From: an uncultured cyanobacterium
Lineage (GTDB): Bacteria > Cyanobacteriota > Cyanobacteriia > Cyanobacteriales > CAWCAG01
Direction of reading: 5' to 3'
Length of the DNA stretch: 64,000 nt
Assembly: GCA_963793425.1 (NCBI GenBank)
Contig: CAWCAG010000005.1
Span: 832,001 to 896,000, forward strand
In this document: positions 18,001 through 24,000 of the stretch, in pieces
How the letters are laid out: each line of letters starts with the position of its first letter
Position numbering within the stretch: the stretch's first letter is position 1
Program-made: the position numbers

Positions 18001-21000
18001 AAAAGTGACTTCCCCCTGTACCATCTCCCTCATTTCCCCAATATCCAAACGTATTTCTTGCTGTCCTGCTGTAGCAACTTGTAAGTTAAGGGGTTTCTGC
18101 AAGCGGCAAGGATATGGAATTCCCGGCTTAAACAAGTTGAGGTAAGCATAATTTTCCGCTTCCGGTTGCCACAGGCGAATACCATAACCGTAGCTGAGAG
18201 TATGATTGTTTGTAGTAGTACCTTGAGTAAAAGCTAATGCACCTCTAACCACGGCTTCTAGGGGTTGATGTGGTTTCAGCCGCTCTGCCCCGAAGTAATT
18301 AGCAACAAACTCTTGTACCCCAGGAATTAAACAGCTACCTCCCACTAAAAGAATGCTATCAATCTTGTCTTGACTCATGCCTTTACGTAGGGCAGTTTCT
18401 CTTACTTCATCTAAGACTTGCTGTATTTGCTTAAACAACCCTTCGCTTTGAAAAAGTTGTCCTAACTCTTCTCTTGTTAAGCTAATTTCTCCTTCTTCCC
18501 AACTTACCTCAGCTTCCTGGGCTAGGGAAAGTTGTATTTTTAACTTTTCTGCGGCAGCTAATAAACTATGCCAACGCCCCTGTTTAAGTTGTTGGCAGTC
18601 AGAAGCAATTTTAACGAGATAATCTTGGGCTATCCAAGTATCAATATCTATCCCCCCTAAGTAAGCCTCTGCTGTAGTGATTATTTGAGCTTGATCAGGA
18701 GTATCTACGGTAACTAAGCTGACATCTAAAGTCCCCCCACCAAAATCTATCCCTAAGATAGTCGCCTTGGGTTGAGTGATGCCATAACCCCAAGCTGCGG
18801 CACTAGCTTCATCCACAATTTGCAGTTGAGGAAAGTTGAGCTTTTTACCAATAGTTTTAAACAGATCAACGTAGCGCTCAAAATTACCTACAGGTGCTGT
18901 AAGAATCATCTGAGTTGGTACAATATTTTGGGCAGTTATTTGTTGCCAAAGCTGCCCTAAAAACAACTCAATCAGATACTCTGGTGTATAAACTTTCCCC
19001 TCAACTTGTTGATCTGGAGAACGATATTCGGCCGCAATATCTCTTTTAAAACCAGTAAATAATCTTTCTGTTTGACTCGTTTGCAACCACTGAGATCGCC
19101 CTGCTTCCCCAAATAAGAGGTTGCCATTTTCTTGCACAAATACCAAACTTGGTACAACATTAACAGTACCAGAATCAACCAAAAAACTGCGGGAAATTTC
19201 AGGGAATTGTAGTACTCTGGGAACTTGAGTTGTAGAGTCTTGGAGACAAATGAGAGTATTGCTAGTACCGAAATCAATAGCAACAGTAGTCACTGCATTT
19301 CTTGAAACAGGGGTTTATCAATTCCAGTTTAGATCGTTGTTTGAAGTTTCCGCCAATAATTGATCCCAAATCGGTGTTTAGGAGCACAGATTATTTATGT
19401 AGAAGATTAATTGCTTGAGAGTTGGTTAAATTGAGTAACCTGACATCTCCTAATTCGAGGACTCGTTGAGGAACTTCTTGCTTAACTCCCAAAGCCTCCA
19501 GCACTTGATGCCCTAAAACCCTAGCTAGTAATGGGGGAACAGCATTTCCTACTTGGCGGAAACCGTGCCATTTTGTGCCATGAAGACGGAACCAGTCAGG
19601 AAAAGAATGCAATCGGGCTGCTTCTCTTACTGAGATCACCCTGTGGTATTGGGGATGAAGAGGACGAGGAGAAGTATAGCTACCTCTTTCTGCCCCTGTC
19701 CCTGCTCTTAAAGTGTGACAAGGTTTGTCCCAAACCAATCTTTGTAGATGGCTGATTCTTTCCCTTTTTCCTGGGAGAGTCTGGCAAAAACGGTTGAGAG
19801 AATTTGTCGTATGTTGGGTTTGGCAAGAACTAGTTAACTTAGTTCTGTTCCAGATACGTTTATAAGCAAAATTGTGGGGATCATCAATTATGCCTCGTAG
19901 GATTTTAACATAATTGCTGGCCCCTGCTTCCCAAATTTCCACTTGTTCTGGTTCTAAATCTACCTCATCGCTAGTTCGTAGTTCCAGGAAATCATCAAGA
20001 TTAGGTAAATCAGCGATCGCCTCCTTAACTGTCGTTGGCTGGGGGGTTAATTCTCCTGTAGGATAAGTTAAAGCTGTTTCTCCTCTTCTTGTCCCCAAAA
20101 GAAACAATCGCTGGCGTTCTTGGGGAACTCCGTAGGCAGAGGCGTTAAGTATTTGTATGGGTTCTGCTAACTGATAACCTGCTGCTTTGAACTCTTCTTT
20201 TAGCCCCGTTAAAATGGCAGCATACTTCTTTTGGGTCAAACCAGGAACATTCTCCATAATGAAGTAACGAGGTTGCAGTTCCTTGACTAAACGACAAAAG
20301 TGAAAGATTAAGTTATTGCGCTCATCTTTTAAGTTTCGTTTACCCATCACCGAAAAACCTTGACAAGGTGGCCCACCTATGAGTAAGCCAATTTCTTGGT
20401 TGAGGCTTTTTTCAATCTCTTGCCCAGAAAGAGTCGCAATATCAGCCCATAACACCTTGCTGTCAGGGAAATTAAACTGATGTACAGCCCCATGAACAGG
20501 GTCTTTTTCCACTGCGATCGCAACATCAAATCCTGCTTGTTCAATACCTAAAGAAAATCCCCCAGCACCAGCAAATAAGTCCACTGCTACGGGGCGGCAG
20601 TGAACTTCGGGGGGCTGGATACTGGGAAGATTAAAAGACAAATTACCAAAGGTTGTAACTTGACATGGTTAGATTAGCACAAATGTACTATTTTGAAGTT
20701 AAAGAAATTTTCCTTGGCCCTTGACAAGTTATGTAGTACTCGTGTAGTATTAGAGCAACAAGACAAATCAAACATCTAAAACAACATACTCAAACAACCG
20801 CCTTGGTTAGAGAACAATGGTTCACATCAGATTTGAAGGTCGTTCCTACGACGTTACCGAACGTCAATTAAGAGTAACTCACCAAATGAATAATACTCAA
20901 ATTAAGGAACGTTTAGCACAGCACTTTGATATCAATATAGATCGCTTTTCCGATTATGTGGTCGATAAACGACCTAGTGGCGATTTAATTGTACGTCCAG

Positions 21001-24000
21001 AAGCAGTTTACGGGTAAGTTAAAACTAAAACTTTTTTTCCCGCGTCCTAACCTCTTAAGCTTACATACTTTTTCGTTTGCGGAACGGAAGGTCACAGGTT
21101 CGAGTCCTGTCATTCCCGCTTAAAATGGGGATGTAGCTCAGTGGTAGAGCGTCAGTATCATAAAAGCTTAATTGACTTGCGCGGGACAACCTTTAAATTC
21201 TTGCTCCTGTTAAAAACAAGTACTTCGCGCCCTAACTTAAAAAGCTTACATACTAGCTCAATTAGTAGAGCGCTTGACTCAAGATCAAGAAGTTGCAGGT
21301 GCGATTCCTGCGTATACTCAACAGCTTTTTTAACTTGCGCGAGGTCACTTTTTTCCTCAATTTTTACCGCGTCCCAATTTGCAAAGCTTACATACTATAT
21401 TAATCCATCGGTCGTAGGTGCAAATCCTACCATCTCCGTTGCCAATGGAGATGTAGCTCAGTTAGTAGAGCAGTGGAATGTATCTGAAATAGCTTTGCTA
21501 ACTTACGCGGTTTGATTTTAAACAAAAATAAAATTACTTCCGTATCCTCATCTAAAAAGCTTACACACTAAGGAATCTGTTATCTGGAAAGATACGTGGG
21601 TTCAAATCCCACCAACCCCGTGGTTGTGGCGGAGTGGTTAAACGCGATAGATATTGTGAAATACAGCTTTTTTAACTTGTACGGAAATTCTTAACCCTAT
21701 AGGGAGGGCATCTATGTCTACAACAACTTTACAAGTTCTTGAACAACTGCAAACCTTTGCTTTCCAAGAAACACAGGAATTAGTAAAGCAAATCGAAGCA
21801 GCTTTTAATGTAGATGTTTCCTCCCAAGTAACCTTTGCCTATTCCCTTGATCCAATTAACTTAACTGGGGAGGATTCTGAAAAGCCAATGGAATTTGATG
21901 TAGTTTTAGAACAAGTCCCTGCTCAAAATAAGATTGCCATCATTAAAGCGTTGCGAAGTCTGACAGGACTGAGTTTGCGAGAATCTAAACAGATGGTTGA
22001 TTCTGCTCCTACAACCATCAATCAGTCAGTGGATCTCCAAATAGCTGAGGCAACGAAAATTCAATTAGAAGCAGTTGGTGCAACAGTTGCTTTGAAATAA
22101 GTAATTTGTTTTCGACTCACAAATGGTAAAATGGTAGCTGTCGCCGCGTCCCAACCGAGAGAGCATACATACTTCCCTGTCACGGAATACAAACAAGCTT
22201 TCTTAACTTGCGCGGCCTCAATAAATCGGCGACATCTATCTCTCAAACTTCGATTCATAGAGGAGGTAGTACAATGACAACTATGACCAAAGATGAACGC
22301 GACTTGCGTTTAGAAATGCTGAACAGTTTGCTAACAACCCCTCACCGTAAACTAGAAGAAGTAGCCGACTTGCATAAAATGCTCGTTGAGTTAGACCCCT
22401 TGTTTTACGGACACTTAGCAATTTGGTATCAACATAATGGTGATATACGTGACCACAAAGAGGTTTTTGTTGGTAACTTGCTGGCTAGTAAGTTAACTGT
22501 CCACAGGGATGCAGGGTTTACGATTTTGCAAAGCTTTCCTCCTTACCAGGTAGCACGAATTGTAGATTTCATGAAGCAGAAACTAGGTAAAATGCCTCGC
22601 TCTGCGCGCACTGCGGTACGTCGTTACTTAACTCACAGAGAAAAAGTTCCTGCTAAGTTCGATAGGGCGGCATTGCGAGGGCGTAAAGCCATGAAACACC
22701 TTTATGCTACCTTACACATCAAACCCAATCCTCGCGCTGATGCAATCCTCTTTAAGGAGCAACCCCCTGAAGGCAGTTTGGCATTAGCCCTAAAGCAGCT
22801 AGCAAAAGCAGAAACCCCTGCTCAACAGGCACAGATGATTGTGGAACATCGCATTCCCTACACTATTGCTGTAGGTGCTGTGAAACAGATTACCCCCACA
22901 GTGTTAGTCGCCTTGATTAACTCCATGTCTCCCCAAGAGGTGATCAACAACCTCAAGCCCCTTAAAGGCAAGGGAGCAATGGATCATCCTGATGTTAAAA
23001 CTCTCATTGATGCTAAGTTGGTTGCTGCACAAACTGACTCCCGTGTATCTGCTTTGAAAGGGAAGGTGGCAGCGAAAGCCGCAAGGTTAGATAAAGGCAC
23101 TACTGCCCAGCTAGAAAAGGTTATGGATACTCAGGTGAAACAGCGGGGTACAATCAAAAAGCCTACTGCTTTGTTGGTGGACAAGTCTAGCTCTATGAAC
23201 ACAGCTTTAGAAGTTGGTAAGCAAGTTGCAACCCTGATTTCTGGAGTTACAGAAGCTGATTTATTTGTCTATGCTTTTGACACCATGCCTTATGAAGTTA
23301 AGGCAACTGGTAAAAACCTTAGTGATTGGGATAAAGCTTTCCAATACTTAAGGGCTGGAGGTGCAACTAGCATCGGTTGCAGCATAGAGGCAATGCGCCT
23401 GAGAAAGCAGGTTGCAGAGCAAATCGTCATGGTAACTGATGAAGGAGAAAATACAGCTCCTTACTTTGACAAAGCCTACGACGACTACTGTAAAGACCTC
23501 TCTGTACGTCCTGATGTAGTTATTATTAGGGTTGGCCATAGCTGTGACTATGTAGAAAAGAGGTTGCAGAAGAAGCAAGTGCAAGTAGATACCTTAACTT
23601 TTGCTGGTGACTACTACTCTTTGCCTAACTTAGTGACTCTGTTGTCTCGTCCTTCTCGTTTAGAGTTGTTGATGGAGATTTTGGCAGTACCTTTACCTGT
23701 CAGGGATGACAAGTGAATTATATTAGGGTAAGTTAATTGCTTGCCCTATTTTTTTTGAGTCCCCTAAGCAATGTATTTCCGTTGCAGAAAGCAAGGAAAG
23801 AATGTGATGGTAGCGCCTCATAACACCAAAGTTTCTAGCCTAGCTAATACTTCTTCAAGAATTTCTGGAGTGGCCTTTTCAACAAATTTTGCTTTTCTTA
23901 CTCGCCAGTCTAAACTTTTGATGTGATCAACTAAGGCTACCCCCGTTGTTTTCATGCTTTCTTCTAAAAGTACTTCAAAGCTTAGTCCTTTAATCTGGTT

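What a model noticed while it worked through the whole genome (the two positions that open the first line are those of the whole stretch)
20817..23716. Cryptic Ro60/TROVE-like protein with a tandem array of five modular Y-like RNAs
g1215 (854274-855716, 480 aa) belongs to a large, highly conserved cyanobacterial family labelled hypothetical/vWA. It is a divergent Ro60/TROVE-vWA homolog that the Pfam and NCBIfam models miss. Ahead of it lie a conserved 66-aa gene and five RNA units that share one covarying stem. Three units enclose circularly permuted tRNA-like bodies. In one the stem replaces the acceptor stem of a tRNA-like body. One is stem-only.
Evidence so far: - No single-sequence hit in Pfam, NCBIfam or PDB. 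- No Pfam TROVE hit anywhere in the genome. - Profile of 32 relatives: RO60 5.4e-14, TROVE 4e-12, Xenopus Ro60 2.2e-10, Rsr 5.1e-7. - MIDAS D/S/S invariant. - Stem: 374 of 385 cells paired over 55 units from 12 genomes, against a shuffled mean of 83.1% and maximum of 86.8%. - YrlA hits at E 1.3e-5 and 5.9e-5, and tRNA 50.5 bits. - Single-unit folds give the predicted architecture. - Protein and units co-occur: 22 of 24 genomes against 2 of 37. - g1213 gives a full-length match in 10 of 12 loci, G000's own among them, plus one partial match.
(Added by a program. Inside this text positions count along the whole contig: contig position 832,001 is position 1 of the stretch shown here. "Call 12" and the like, gene names such as g00115 and contig names such as C1 are that model's own, and its searches are not shown. 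The text may have been shortened before it was handed on; [...] marks where a part breaks off. The agent that wrote the report below was given it as the finding of a first reader that could run no searches.)

Follow-up and report, generated by a model that had tools for sequence, protein, structure and literature searches.

The report
Divergent Ro60 protein with Y-RNA array
A cyanobacterial operon encodes an unrecognised relative of the Ro60 RNA-binding ring protein together with five RNAs that share one conserved stem and mostly carry tRNA-like heads, a second, divergent version of the known Ro60/Y RNA system.

Summary
Window 20817-23716 (+) is one apparent operon. In order it holds a 66-aa protein, four RNA units, an L7/L12 paralog, a fifth stem-only unit and a 480-aa protein.

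- **The protein is a Ro60/TROVE-vWA homolog that Pfam and NCBIfam miss.** A profile hits RO60 at 7.4e-18. hhalign against canonical cyanobacterial TROVE proteins gives 98.2%. The AlphaFold model has pLDDT 92.9. It aligns to D. radiodurans Rsr at Z 22.3 over 439 residues.
- **All five units share a covarying two-part stem.** 92.1% of cells pair against 78.0% after shuffling, 0 of 500 shuffles as high. A model built from stem-only units finds exactly these five in 64 kb.
- **Protein and stem co-occur.** 11 of 11 genomes with the protein have the stem, against 2 of 140 without it.
- **The protein, stem and 66-aa gene recur together in 4 of 6 viral contigs** at 44-48% protein identity.

No RNA or binding data exist. 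This is a new variant of a known kind. New features are the distinct stem motif, arrays of up to nine units, full tRNA bodies with free anticodons, a beta-grasp partner and an L7/L12 paralog.

The parts
20721..20750 (+). promoter-like site (TTGACA, 18 nt, TAGTAT) ahead of g1213
   Evidence: 10 of 12 consensus matches. Consensus match only. It is the only strong + strand site before the operon.
20817..21017 (+). g1213, a conserved 66-aa protein with a predicted beta-grasp fold and an invariant C-terminal EAVYG
   Evidence: One search gives the ORF. It is full length in 53 of 79 related loci and in 4 of 6 viral loci at 26-35% identity. The AF2 model has pLDDT 91.1. Best structural matches are MoaD and ubiquitin-like proteins at Z 5.3, which is weak. 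No Pfam, NCBIfam or PADLOC family.
21036..21192 (+). unit 1: shared stem enclosing a hairpin, T arm, acceptor-like hairpin and D arm (YrlA-like permuted tRNA body)
   Evidence: R1 47.9 bits. Rfam YrlA 34.3 bits at 21087-21153. Fold.
21221..21350 (+). unit 2: shared stem continuing into a tRNA cloverleaf body (D, anticodon and T arms) with no free acceptor end
   Evidence: R1 59.1 bits. Rfam tRNA 50.5 bits over model positions 4-67. ARAGORN calls tRNA-Leu CAA. RNAalifold on 48 such units is.
21363..21518 (+). unit 3: shared stem enclosing a YrlA-like permuted tRNA body
   Evidence: R1 55.4 bits. Rfam YrlA 36.5 bits over model positions 1-114. Fold z-score -4.98.
21536..21692 (+). unit 4: shared stem enclosing a hairpin, T arm, acceptor-like hairpin and D-like arm
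   Evidence: R1 43.2 bits. Fold. Near-identical head modules occur in other loci such as L009 and L015.
21714..22100 (+). L7/L12 paralog, 128 aa, with a conserved C-terminal domain and a divergent N-terminal domain and hinge
   Evidence: TIGR00855 99.8 bits against a cut-off of 84.4. Pfam C-terminal domain 78.7 bits, N-terminal domain 16.5 bits against a cut-off of 25. The genome also holds the canonical rplL at 160.8 bits elsewhere. The two copies are 42% identical. A homolog sits inside the array in 41 of 79 loci.
22140..22223 (+). unit 5: stem-only unit in the 5' leader of the Ro-like gene
   Evidence: R1 71.7 bits. Fold z-score -3.87. The unit nearest the gene is stem-only in 57 of 75 loci that have units.
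22274..23716 (+). Ro60/TROVE-vWA homolog, 480 aa (g1215)
23724..23756 (+). terminator-like hairpin followed by T8, directly after the Ro-like stop codon
   Evidence: 10-pair stem and T run. Consensus match only.

Best explanation
The locus is one operon for a Ro60-type ribonucleoprotein system of a divergent lineage.

**Shown:**
- The 480-aa protein is a ring of HEAT-like helices closed by a vWA domain with an intact MIDAS motif, like Ro60/Rsr.
- The five units are its Y-like RNAs. Each pairs its 5' and 3' ends into an outer helix. Then come a conserved asymmetric internal loop (5' CCYAAC, 3' AACUU), an inner helix and a conserved UACAUAC.

**Inferred:**
- This shared element is the protein's docking site. 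It would be the counterpart of the stem-bulge-stem with GGUCCGA or GNCGAA in known Y RNAs.
- The variable heads act as adaptors, as YrlA and Yrn1 tether Rsr to PNPase. Heads are a permuted tRNA body, a full cloverleaf without an acceptor end, or nothing. They would present tRNA shapes to tRNA-binding or RNA-processing factors.
- The units are cut out of one transcript that runs from the promoter-like site at 20721 to the terminator-like site at 23724.
- The stem-only unit in the leader of the Ro-like gene gives the protein a site on its own mRNA for feedback control.
- The 66-aa beta-grasp protein is a core partner. The L7/L12 paralog is an optional accessory that may link the particle to translation factors or the ribosome.
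For: **Protein**
- The profile of 62 representatives hits only Ro60/TROVE at the top: RO60 7.4e-18, Xenopus Ro 2.9e-13, phage TROVE 7.7e-13 over query 24-394, Rsr 5.5e-7.
- 16 of 62 members hit PF25045 vWA_Ro60.
- hhalign to three canonical cyanobacterial TROVE proteins gives 98.2%, E 3.3e-14, over 380 columns.
- The AF2 model has pLDDT 92.9 and pTM 0.84.
- The eleven best-ranked distinct rows in Foldseek (ranks 1-12) are all Ro60/TROVE chains.
- VIA-align gives Rsr Z 22.3 with 439 residues aligned and human Ro60 Z 21.6. vWA-only hits reach at most Z 16.4 over about 158 residues.

**RNA**
- 321 paired units were found in 76 of 80 sources, that is 79 loci plus the window.
- In 287 distinct units the seven core outer pairs are paired in 1921 of 1939 cells, with exchanges such as CG 135, UA 102, UG 21, AU 9 at one pair.
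- The median uninterrupted outer helix is 10 bp, and the inner helix covaries.
- Tool counts: A3 85.4% paired against 76.4% shuffled, 31-50% when slid. A6 92.1% against 78.0%, 0 of 500 shuffles as high, 35-54% when slid, and 428 cells changed on both sides against 126.9.
- Model R1 gives 325 hits at E<=0.001 in 896,644 nt. All 300 listed hits are on the protein's strand.

**Linkage**
- 69 of 72 loci with at least 1500 nt upstream have units.
- 11 of 11 genomes with the protein have the stem, against 2 of 140 without it.
- In the 3 genomes that hold both this protein and a Pfam TROVE protein, the stems lie beside this gene and not beside the TROVE gene.
- In viral contigs with a 44-48% identical protein, 4 of 6 carry the stem with compensated outer pairs and a g1213 homolog.

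**tRNA-like heads**
- Rfam and ARAGORN hits.
- RNAalifold on 48 units predicts stems plus D, anticodon and T arms, with 15 of 27 pairs compensated.
Against: - No RNA-seq run could be listed, so expression, ends and processing of the units are unknown.
- No binding evidence of any kind exists.
- Rfam YrlA scores of 36.5 and 34.3 are far below the gathering score of 69.
- The 5'-strand motifs that Chen et al. 2014 tie to Ro binding (GGUCCGA, GNCGAAN0-1G) are absent. The motif here is GCGCCCYAAC.
- Pfam TROVE matches neither the protein nor, at E<=0.01, any of 62 relatives.
- Covariation counts include related sequences, and A6 was fitted to the model.
- Two genomes have a stem unit without the protein. 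One of them sits beside p241 with no Ro-like gene within 8 kb.
- Second L7/L12 copies also occur in about 13 genomes that lack the system.
- The promoter and terminator are consensus matches no more frequent than in shuffles.
Confidence: 0.72

Rival explanations
1. This uses the same parts but for a conflict or RNA-damage function. The tRNA-shaped heads with unconstrained anticodon loops would serve as decoys or sensors for tRNA-cutting nucleases of phages, toxins or rivals. The Ro-like ring would be the platform for capture or repair. Phages would carry their own copy as counter-defence.
For: - ARAGORN of 321 units as tRNA, with 28 different anticodon triplets, including CUA (11) and UUA (3).
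- The anticodon stem covaries while the loop varies.
- An RNA 2'-phosphotransferase (Tpt1/KptA, PF01885) lies downstream in 9 loci.
- Four of the six viral contigs that encode the protein also carry the units, there set among real phage tRNA genes.
- The window's neighbours are a C5 DNA methylase and a MazEF pair.
- Published Rsr-YrlA operons sit with RtcB RNA repair genes and respond to damaged tRNA (abstract of PMC7790460 seen in the listing; passage of PMC7824862).
Against: - No PADLOC family matches any of the three proteins.
- No nuclease or ligase is conserved in the locus.
- Tpt1 is present in only 9 of 79 loci.
- Neighbouring genes are not conserved across loci.
Confidence: 0.18
2. The units are cis-acting elements of the operon mRNA, such as processing, stability or translational control sites, and not stable trans-acting RNAs. 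The protein would regulate only its own operon through them.
For: - All units lie inside one apparent transcription unit between coding genes.
- A stem-only unit sits at a nearly fixed distance before the Ro-like start codon in many loci. The unit nearest the gene is stem-only in 57 of 75 loci, and in 27 of those it ends 49-61 nt before the start.
Against: - Up to 9 units per locus with elaborate, selectively maintained tRNA-like heads are more than a control site needs.
- Units also occur away from the gene in some genomes, for example G080, G148 and G005.
- Known Y RNAs are likewise co-transcribed with rsr. This point is recalled from the Salmonella literature and was not seen in any call.
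Confidence: 0.08
3. The units are tRNA-derived repeats or pseudogenes that happen to lie near a vWA protein of unrelated function.
For: - tRNA and YrlA models score only moderately.
- The Rfam tRNA hit at 21447-21620 is a chimera of two neighbouring units.
Against: - The stem covaries and is conserved from cyanobacteria to viral contigs.
- Strand, order and co-occurrence are fixed.
- The protein has the full Ro60 fold, not just a vWA domain.
Confidence: 0.02

Closest known systems
Bacterial Rsr (Ro60 ortholog) with YrlA/Yrn Y RNAs (D. radiodurans, Salmonella, M. smegmatis; Chen et al. 2014, PMC4201824, passages read)
   Same: - A ring protein of HEAT repeats plus a vWA domain.
- RNAs encoded on the same strand next to the gene.
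- A terminal 5'/3' stem with an internal loop.
- A tRNA-like T arm, acceptor-like hairpin and D arm in the head.
- More than one Y RNA per locus is known.
   Different: - The protein is missed by Pfam TROVE and shares 14-17% identity with solved Ro60 proteins.
- The stem motif is GCGCCCYAAC / AACUUGCGC with UACAUAC, not GNCGAAN0-1G.
- YrlA scores are half the gathering score.
- Arrays reach 9 units.
- Many heads are complete cloverleaves with an anticodon arm.
- Accessory genes are a beta-grasp protein, an L7/L12 paralog and p241, not rtcBA.
- The family coexists with canonical TROVE proteins in 3 of 11 genomes.
Thermus phage phiLo Ro60 with Yrl1 and Yrl2 (PMC12135203, abstract and passages read; PDB 9l5y, 9kop)
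   Same: - A phage-borne Ro60 with Y-like RNAs just upstream of the gene.
- A stem-bulge-stem docking element.
- It is among the best sequence-profile and structural matches (7.7e-13; Z 20.6 and 18.6).
   Different: - phiLo has two Yrls with a CGAA motif.
- Here there are five units with another motif and tRNA bodies.
- The viral relatives of this family are separate IMG/VR contigs 44-48% identical to the window protein.
Rfam tRNA (RF00005), for unit 2
   Same: D, anticodon and T arms score 50.5 bits, above the gathering score of 29.
   Different: - The match covers only model positions 4-67.
- The acceptor helix runs on into the shared stem, so there is no free 3' end to charge.
- The anticodon triplet is unconstrained across homologous units.
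Ribosomal protein bL12 (L7/L12), for the 128-aa protein
   Same: It matches TIGR00855 above the cut-off over its full length. The C-terminal, factor-binding domain is well conserved.
   Different: - It is a second copy outside the ribosomal gene cluster, 42% identical to the canonical one.
- The N-terminal dimerisation/L10-binding domain is weak: 16.5 bits here, and 26.5-45 bits over a shortened stretch in 5 of 5 other copies tested, against 67.5 for the canonical protein.

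Membership tests
Ro60 / TROVE-vWA (Rsr) superfamily | Ring of HEAT-like helical repeats closed by a C-terminal vWA domain | tested here: met
   The AF2 model has pLDDT 92.9. VIA-align gives Rsr 2nvo Z 22.3, rmsd 3.8, 439 residues aligned. The ten best entries are all Ro60/TROVE with 413-439 residues aligned. Foldseek ranks 1-12 hold eleven distinct rows, all Ro60/TROVE.
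Ro60 / TROVE-vWA (Rsr) superfamily | Sequence homology across the TROVE and vWA regions | tested here: met
   Profile A2 against PDB: RO60 7.4e-18 and a phage TROVE protein 7.7e-13 over query 24-394. hhalign A2 against canonical TROVE proteins: 98.2%, columns 34-421 against 71-500.
Ro60 / TROVE-vWA (Rsr) superfamily | Match to Pfam TROVE (PF05731) at the curated threshold | tested here: not met
   There is no hit for the protein, none in the genome, and none at E<=0.01 among 62 relatives. 16 of 62 do hit PF25045 vWA_Ro60.
Ro60 / TROVE-vWA (Rsr) superfamily | MIDAS motif (DxSxS, T, D) in the vWA domain | tested here: met
   D303, S305, S307 and D389 are invariant and T365 is at least 90% conserved in 62 diverse relatives.
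Ro60 / TROVE-vWA (Rsr) superfamily | Binds Y RNA on the outer surface and misfolded RNA ends in the central hole | not testable with these tools
   No protein-RNA prediction or experiment was available.
YrlA / bacterial Y RNA (RF02553) | Score at or above the Rfam gathering score of 69 bits | tested here: not met
   36.5 bits for unit 3 and 34.3 bits for unit 1. No hit at E<=1 for units 2, 4 and 5.
YrlA / bacterial Y RNA (RF02553) | 5' and 3' ends pair into a long stem with an internal loop | tested here: met
YrlA / bacterial Y RNA (RF02553) | GNCGAAN0-1G (or GGUCCGA) motif on the 5' strand, as defined in Chen et al. 2014 | tested here: not met
   The consensus 5' strand is CGCGCCCuaAC, and GCGUCCYAA in the window. 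This is a different conserved motif at the same kind of place.
YrlA / bacterial Y RNA (RF02553) | tRNA-like domain with T arm, acceptor-like stem and D arm | tested here: met
   Units 1 and 3 by Rfam alignment. Units 1, 3 and 4 by fold. Not met for unit 5, which is stem only.
YrlA / bacterial Y RNA (RF02553) | Encoded within 4 kb of a Ro60 ortholog | tested here: met
   All five units lie within 1240 nt upstream of the gene. 69 of 72 related loci with at least 1500 nt upstream have units.
tRNA (unit 2) | Complete acceptor stem with a free 3' end | tested here: not met
   The Rfam match covers model positions 4-67 only, and the helix continues into the shared stem.
bL12 (L7/L12), 128-aa protein | Full-length match above the TIGR00855 cut-off | tested here: met
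   99.8 bits against a cut-off of 84.4.
bL12 (L7/L12), 128-aa protein | N-terminal dimerisation/L10-binding domain (PF16320) at threshold | tested here: not met
   16.5 bits against a cut-off of 25 for the window's copy. Five of 5 other copies tested pass, at 26.5-45 bits over a shortened stretch.
beta-grasp / ubiquitin-like (MoaD, ThiS, TtuB), g1213 | beta-grasp fold with a C-terminal glycine tail | tested here: inconclusive
   The model has the strand-strand-helix-strand-strand order. Best matches are MoaD at Z 5.3 and TtuB at Z 4.5, and Foldseek gives E>0.2. The invariant C-terminus is YG, not GG.

The most novel reading that the evidence does not exclude
The system would be a modular display platform for tRNA mimics. 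A Ro-like ring, with its beta-grasp partner, holds one universal stem. An array of interchangeable heads is presented to the translation and tRNA-processing machinery. The heads are permuted tRNAs, full cloverleaves with free and even suppressor-like anticodons, and non-tRNA modules. The locus-encoded L7/L12 paralog would recruit translational GTPases or dock the particle at the ribosome stalk. Together they would form a tRNA/ribosome surveillance or decoy system that filamentous cyanobacteria and their phages both use in RNA-level conflicts.
Probability: 0.15. Interest if true: 0.88.

Novelty: new variant of a known kind. Interest (0 to 1): 0.7.

Why it matters
Ro60/Y RNA particles are known from animals to bacteria, yet their bacterial roles are still poorly understood.

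- **A missed lineage.** The scan found this family in 507 of the species-representative genomes. It has 1283 clusters at 50% identity and occurs in viral contigs. Public records label it only 'hypothetical' or 'vWA'. The 2014 census searched only around TROVE-annotated proteins, so it could not have found this family.
- **A natural experiment in RNA recognition.** The stem motif is different and strongly covaries. The heads are swapped freely, from nothing to a complete cloverleaf.
- **New candidate partners.** A beta-grasp protein travels with the system even into phages. An L7/L12 paralog points to the translation apparatus.
- **Testability.** Many culturable Nostoc, Calothrix and Tolypothrix strains carry the locus, so the predictions can be tested directly.

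Tried and rejected
- **RNA evidence.** The look-up of sequencing runs (kind rna) listed no RNA holder.
- **Complex prediction.** The Ro-like protein with g1213 gave 'no answer', score 0.00. This is no evidence either way.
- **Close relatives alone.** The profile of 36 close relatives gave only a marginal TROVE hit, E 0.17. A diverse set from the representative search was needed.
- **g1213.** No Pfam, NCBIfam or PADLOC family. PHROGs gave only E 0.041. The profile against PDB gave nothing below E 0.28. The Atlas gave only unnamed clusters. Foldseek found no match below E 0.2.
- **p241.** No Pfam or NCBIfam family. The Atlas gave unnamed, phage-rich clusters.
- **Distant relatives.** A cluster look-up of 10 distant relatives returned no taxon names.
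- **Viral scan.** It failed with the diverse alignment A2 and was repeated with A1.
- **Whole-genome search with R1.** It recovered only 2 of the 5 units because only 150 of 3014 candidates were scored. Arm HMMs were therefore run over the laid genome.
- **Leader folding.** Folding the leader 22120-22295 gave no significant extra structure around the ribosome binding site, z -1.26. An RBS-sequestering switch is not claimed.
- **L7/L12 paralog as a specific marker.** Rejected. Second copies also occur in genomes without the system.
- **Literature.** Searches found no paper that describes this family, its stem or an L7/L12 paralog in a Ro locus. The library lacks most subscription journals. The 2020 Annual Review on bacterial Ro60 (PMC10870794) is not held. 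The supplementary tables of Chen et al. 2014, which list their cyanobacterial YrlA hits, were not opened.

Full report
**What is there.**
On the + strand the window holds, in order:
- a promoter-like site at 20721-20750;
- a 66-aa ORF, g1213, at 20817-21017;
- four RNA units at 21036-21192, 21221-21350, 21363-21518 and 21536-21692;
- a 128-aa ORF at 21714-22100;
- a fifth unit at 22140-22223;
- a 480-aa ORF at 22274-23716 that starts behind GAGGAGG;
- a terminator-like hairpin with T8 at 23724-23756.

The repeat finder shows the five shared 5' arms and 3' arms. The flanking genes are on the other strand. They are a C5 DNA methylase at 19391-20641 and a MazF/MazE pair at 23818-24392.

**The protein is a Ro60 homolog.**
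- Alone it hits nothing but VWA_2 at E 0.007. Pfam TROVE finds nothing in the whole genome, although it rings in the D. radiodurans and B. thetaiotaomicron controls.
- The family is large. 2699 proteins scored E<=0.001 among 8000 candidates. The 120 best are 67-100% identical and are named 'hypothetical' or 'vWA domain-containing' by their sources.
- A full scan gives 1283 clusters at E<=0.001.
- A profile of 36 close relatives reaches only E 0.17 against a TROVE structure.
- A profile of 62 diverse representatives hits RO60 at 7.4e-18, Xenopus Ro at 2.9e-13 and the Thermus phage TROVE protein at 7.7e-13 over query 24-394. It hits D. radiodurans Rsr at 5.5e-7, ahead of generic vWA domains.
- 16 of the 62 hit PF25045 (Ro60 vWA). 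None hit PF05731 at E<=0.01.
- Profile-profile comparison with three canonical cyanobacterial TROVE proteins gives 98.2% probability, E 3.3e-14, over 380 columns.
- The AlphaFold2 model has pLDDT 92.9 and pTM 0.84.
- The eleven best-ranked distinct rows in Foldseek (ranks 1-12) are all Ro60/TROVE chains.
- VIA-align gives Rsr Z 22.3 (439 residues, rmsd 3.8), human Ro60 Z 21.6 and the phage protein Z 20.6. vWA-only matches stop at Z 16.4 over about 158 residues.
- D303, S305, S307 and D389 are invariant.

**The units share one covarying element.**
- Each single fold gives an outer helix and then an asymmetric internal loop. An inner helix and a head follow.
- HMMs of the two arms found 361 5'-arm and 343 3'-arm hits at E<=10 in 79 related loci plus the window. 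Only 2 and 3 of them lie on the opposite strand.
- They pair into 321 units.
- In 287 distinct units the seven core outer pairs are paired in 1921 of 1939 cells, with real exchanges. Examples are CG 135, UA 102, UG 21 and AU 9 at one pair, and GC 204, AU 45 and GU 35 at another.
- The uninterrupted outer helix has a median of 10 bp, and the inner helix covaries, for example AU 111, GC 77, UG 22, UA 20 and CG 10 at one pair.
- On a MAFFT alignment of 57 stem-only units, the named structure pairs 85.4% of cells against 76.4% after shuffling (0 of 500 shuffles as high). With slid partners it pairs 31-50%.
- A covariance model built from that alignment finds exactly the five units in the window. 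It gives 325 hits at E<=0.001 in 896,644 nt of 86 sources, and all 300 listed hits are on the protein's strand.
- On its 150 best hits 92.1% of cells pair against 78.0% shuffled and 35-54% slid. 428 cells changed on both sides against 126.9. This alignment is fitted to the model.
- Conserved unpaired letters are 5' CCYAAC and 3' AACUU in the loop, and UACAUAC after the inner helix.

**The heads are modular.**
- Insert lengths fall into modes. 66 units are stem-only, 122 are near 65 nt, about 100 are between 73 and 106 nt, and the remaining 31-34 are larger or fall between these classes.
- The 65-nt class is a cloverleaf body. RNAalifold on 48 units predicts the two shared helices plus D, anticodon and T arms, with 15 of 27 pairs compensated.
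- ARAGORN of 122 of that class as tRNA, and 111 of 321 units overall. The calls carry 28 different anticodon triplets, including CUA (11) and UUA (3). The triplet is therefore not under selection.
- The longer class holds several types:
  - YrlA-type permuted bodies (T arm, closed acceptor hairpin, D arm);
  - bodies permuted in the D loop;
  - long-variable-arm bodies;
  - non-tRNA modules.
- In the window, units 1, 3 and 4 are YrlA-type, unit 2 is the cloverleaf type and unit 5 is stem-only.

**Linkage.**
- 507 genome records encode a relative.
- 69 of 72 loci with at least 1500 nt upstream have units, and 61 have three or more. The number per locus runs from 0 to 9.
- The unit nearest the gene is stem-only in 57 of 75 loci. 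In 27 of these the unit's 3' arm window ends 49-61 nt before the start codon.
- In one evenly drawn sample of 151 genomes of the phylum, the protein is in 11 and the stem in 13. All 11 protein carriers have the stem, and 2 of the 140 others do. Kin are not independent.
- One of the two exceptions has the unit beside a p241 gene with no Ro-like gene within 8 kb.
- Pfam TROVE proteins occur in 29 of the 151 genomes. In the three genomes with both kinds, the stems lie beside the divergent gene.
- In the window's own genome the arms occur nowhere else at E<0.05.

**Phage copies.**
- Six IMG/VR contigs encode relatives at 44-48% identity.
- Four of them carry 11 stem hits upstream on the same strand. 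The outer pairs are re-coded, for example CCGUCU/AGACGG, while CCUAA, CUUACAAAC and AACUU are kept. Five of the hits enclose tRNA-scoring bodies and lie among real phage tRNA genes.
- The same four contigs encode a full-length g1213 homolog at 26-35% identity.

**Accessory proteins.**
- **g1213.** It is full length in 53 of 79 loci (51 of 66 with at least 3 kb upstream) and 79% identical on average. Its model (pLDDT 91.1) has a beta-grasp topology with weak likeness to MoaD, TtuB and ubiquitin, at Z 5.3 or less.
- **The 128-aa protein.** It is an L7/L12 paralog: TIGR00855 99.8 bits, 42% identical to the genome's canonical copy, with a weak N-terminal domain. A homolog sits inside the array in 41 of 79 loci. 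Second copies also exist in genomes without the system.
- **p241.** This 241-aa protein has no known family. It lies inside the array in 34 of 79 loci but not in the window.
- **Tpt1/KptA** follows the gene in 9 loci.

**Mechanism.**
- Shown: a Ro60-fold protein, a conserved covarying RNA element, and their strict genomic coupling across large divergence.
- Inferred: the element is the protein's docking site, and the units are cut from one transcript. The heads would tether tRNA-binding or RNA-decay factors as YrlA does. The leader unit would give feedback control.

**Comparison with the literature.**
- Chen et al. 2014 (passages) define Y RNA by a long stem and a 5'-strand motif, GGUCCGA or GNCGAAN0-1G. 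They searched only near TROVE-annotated genes and report few YrlA RNAs in cyanobacteria.
- The phiLo study (abstract and passages) describes two Yrls with a CGAA motif upstream of a phage Ro60.
- The jumbo-phage survey (passage) notes TROVE proteins with a tRNA-like partner.
- None of the six literature searches found this family.

**Verdict.**
It is a new variant of a known kind, with several unreported features.

Noticed in passing
window 21714-22100 (+): An L7/L12 paralog sits between units 4 and 5. The canonical rplL lies about 59 kb upstream on the same contig (C5:794157-794549). Homologs sit inside the array in 41 of 79 related loci, and two loci (L026, L028) hold two copies.
   Followed up: partly
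related loci, e.g. L066:3626-4348 (+): A conserved 241-aa protein with no Pfam or NCBIfam family lies inside the unit array in 34 of 79 loci. It is absent from the window and its genome. Its nearest Atlas clusters are rich in phage members.
   Followed up: partly
related loci, e.g. L036:8923-9477 (+): An RNA 2'-phosphotransferase (Tpt1/KptA, PF01885, 183.7 bits) lies downstream of the Ro-like gene in 9 loci. A DUF6847 protein occurs in 11 loci.
   Followed up: no
L094:4336-4413 and L094:1513-2229 (G059): An orphan stem-only unit lies downstream of a p241 homolog (71% identity). No Ro-like gene lies within the 8 kb fetched. This looks like a remnant or partial locus in a genus where another species has the full system.
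   Followed up: partly
units of related loci: Among tRNA-bodied units, ARAGORN reads 28 different anticodon triplets, including suppressor-like CUA (11 units) and UUA (3 units).
   Followed up: partly
L090-L093 (IMG/VR contigs): In viral contigs the stem units are interleaved with high-scoring genuine tRNA genes (up to 71 bits). Two of the contigs are 239 kb and 390 kb long.
   Followed up: partly
window 21447-21620 (+): The Rfam tRNA hit of 33.8 bits joins the D arm of unit 3 to the T arm of unit 4 across 66 inserted bases. It is a chimeric false positive, the reverse of the artefact Chen et al. 2014 warn about for tandem tRNAs.
   Followed up: yes
window 22135-22146 and 22227-22238: A 12-nt inverted repeat (92% complementary) could extend or compete with the outer stem of unit 5 in the leader of the Ro-like gene. 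Folding the leader gave no significant support (z -1.26).
   Followed up: partly
window 19391-20641 (-) and 23818-24392 (-): A C5 cytosine DNA methylase lies upstream and a MazF/PemK-MazE toxin-antitoxin pair lies downstream of the operon. These neighbours are not conserved in the related loci.
   Followed up: partly
G107:C2:13205-14631: The Ro-like gene of one related genome carries an in-frame TGA and matches in two pieces. It is possibly a pseudogene, yet four stem units remain beside it.
   Followed up: no
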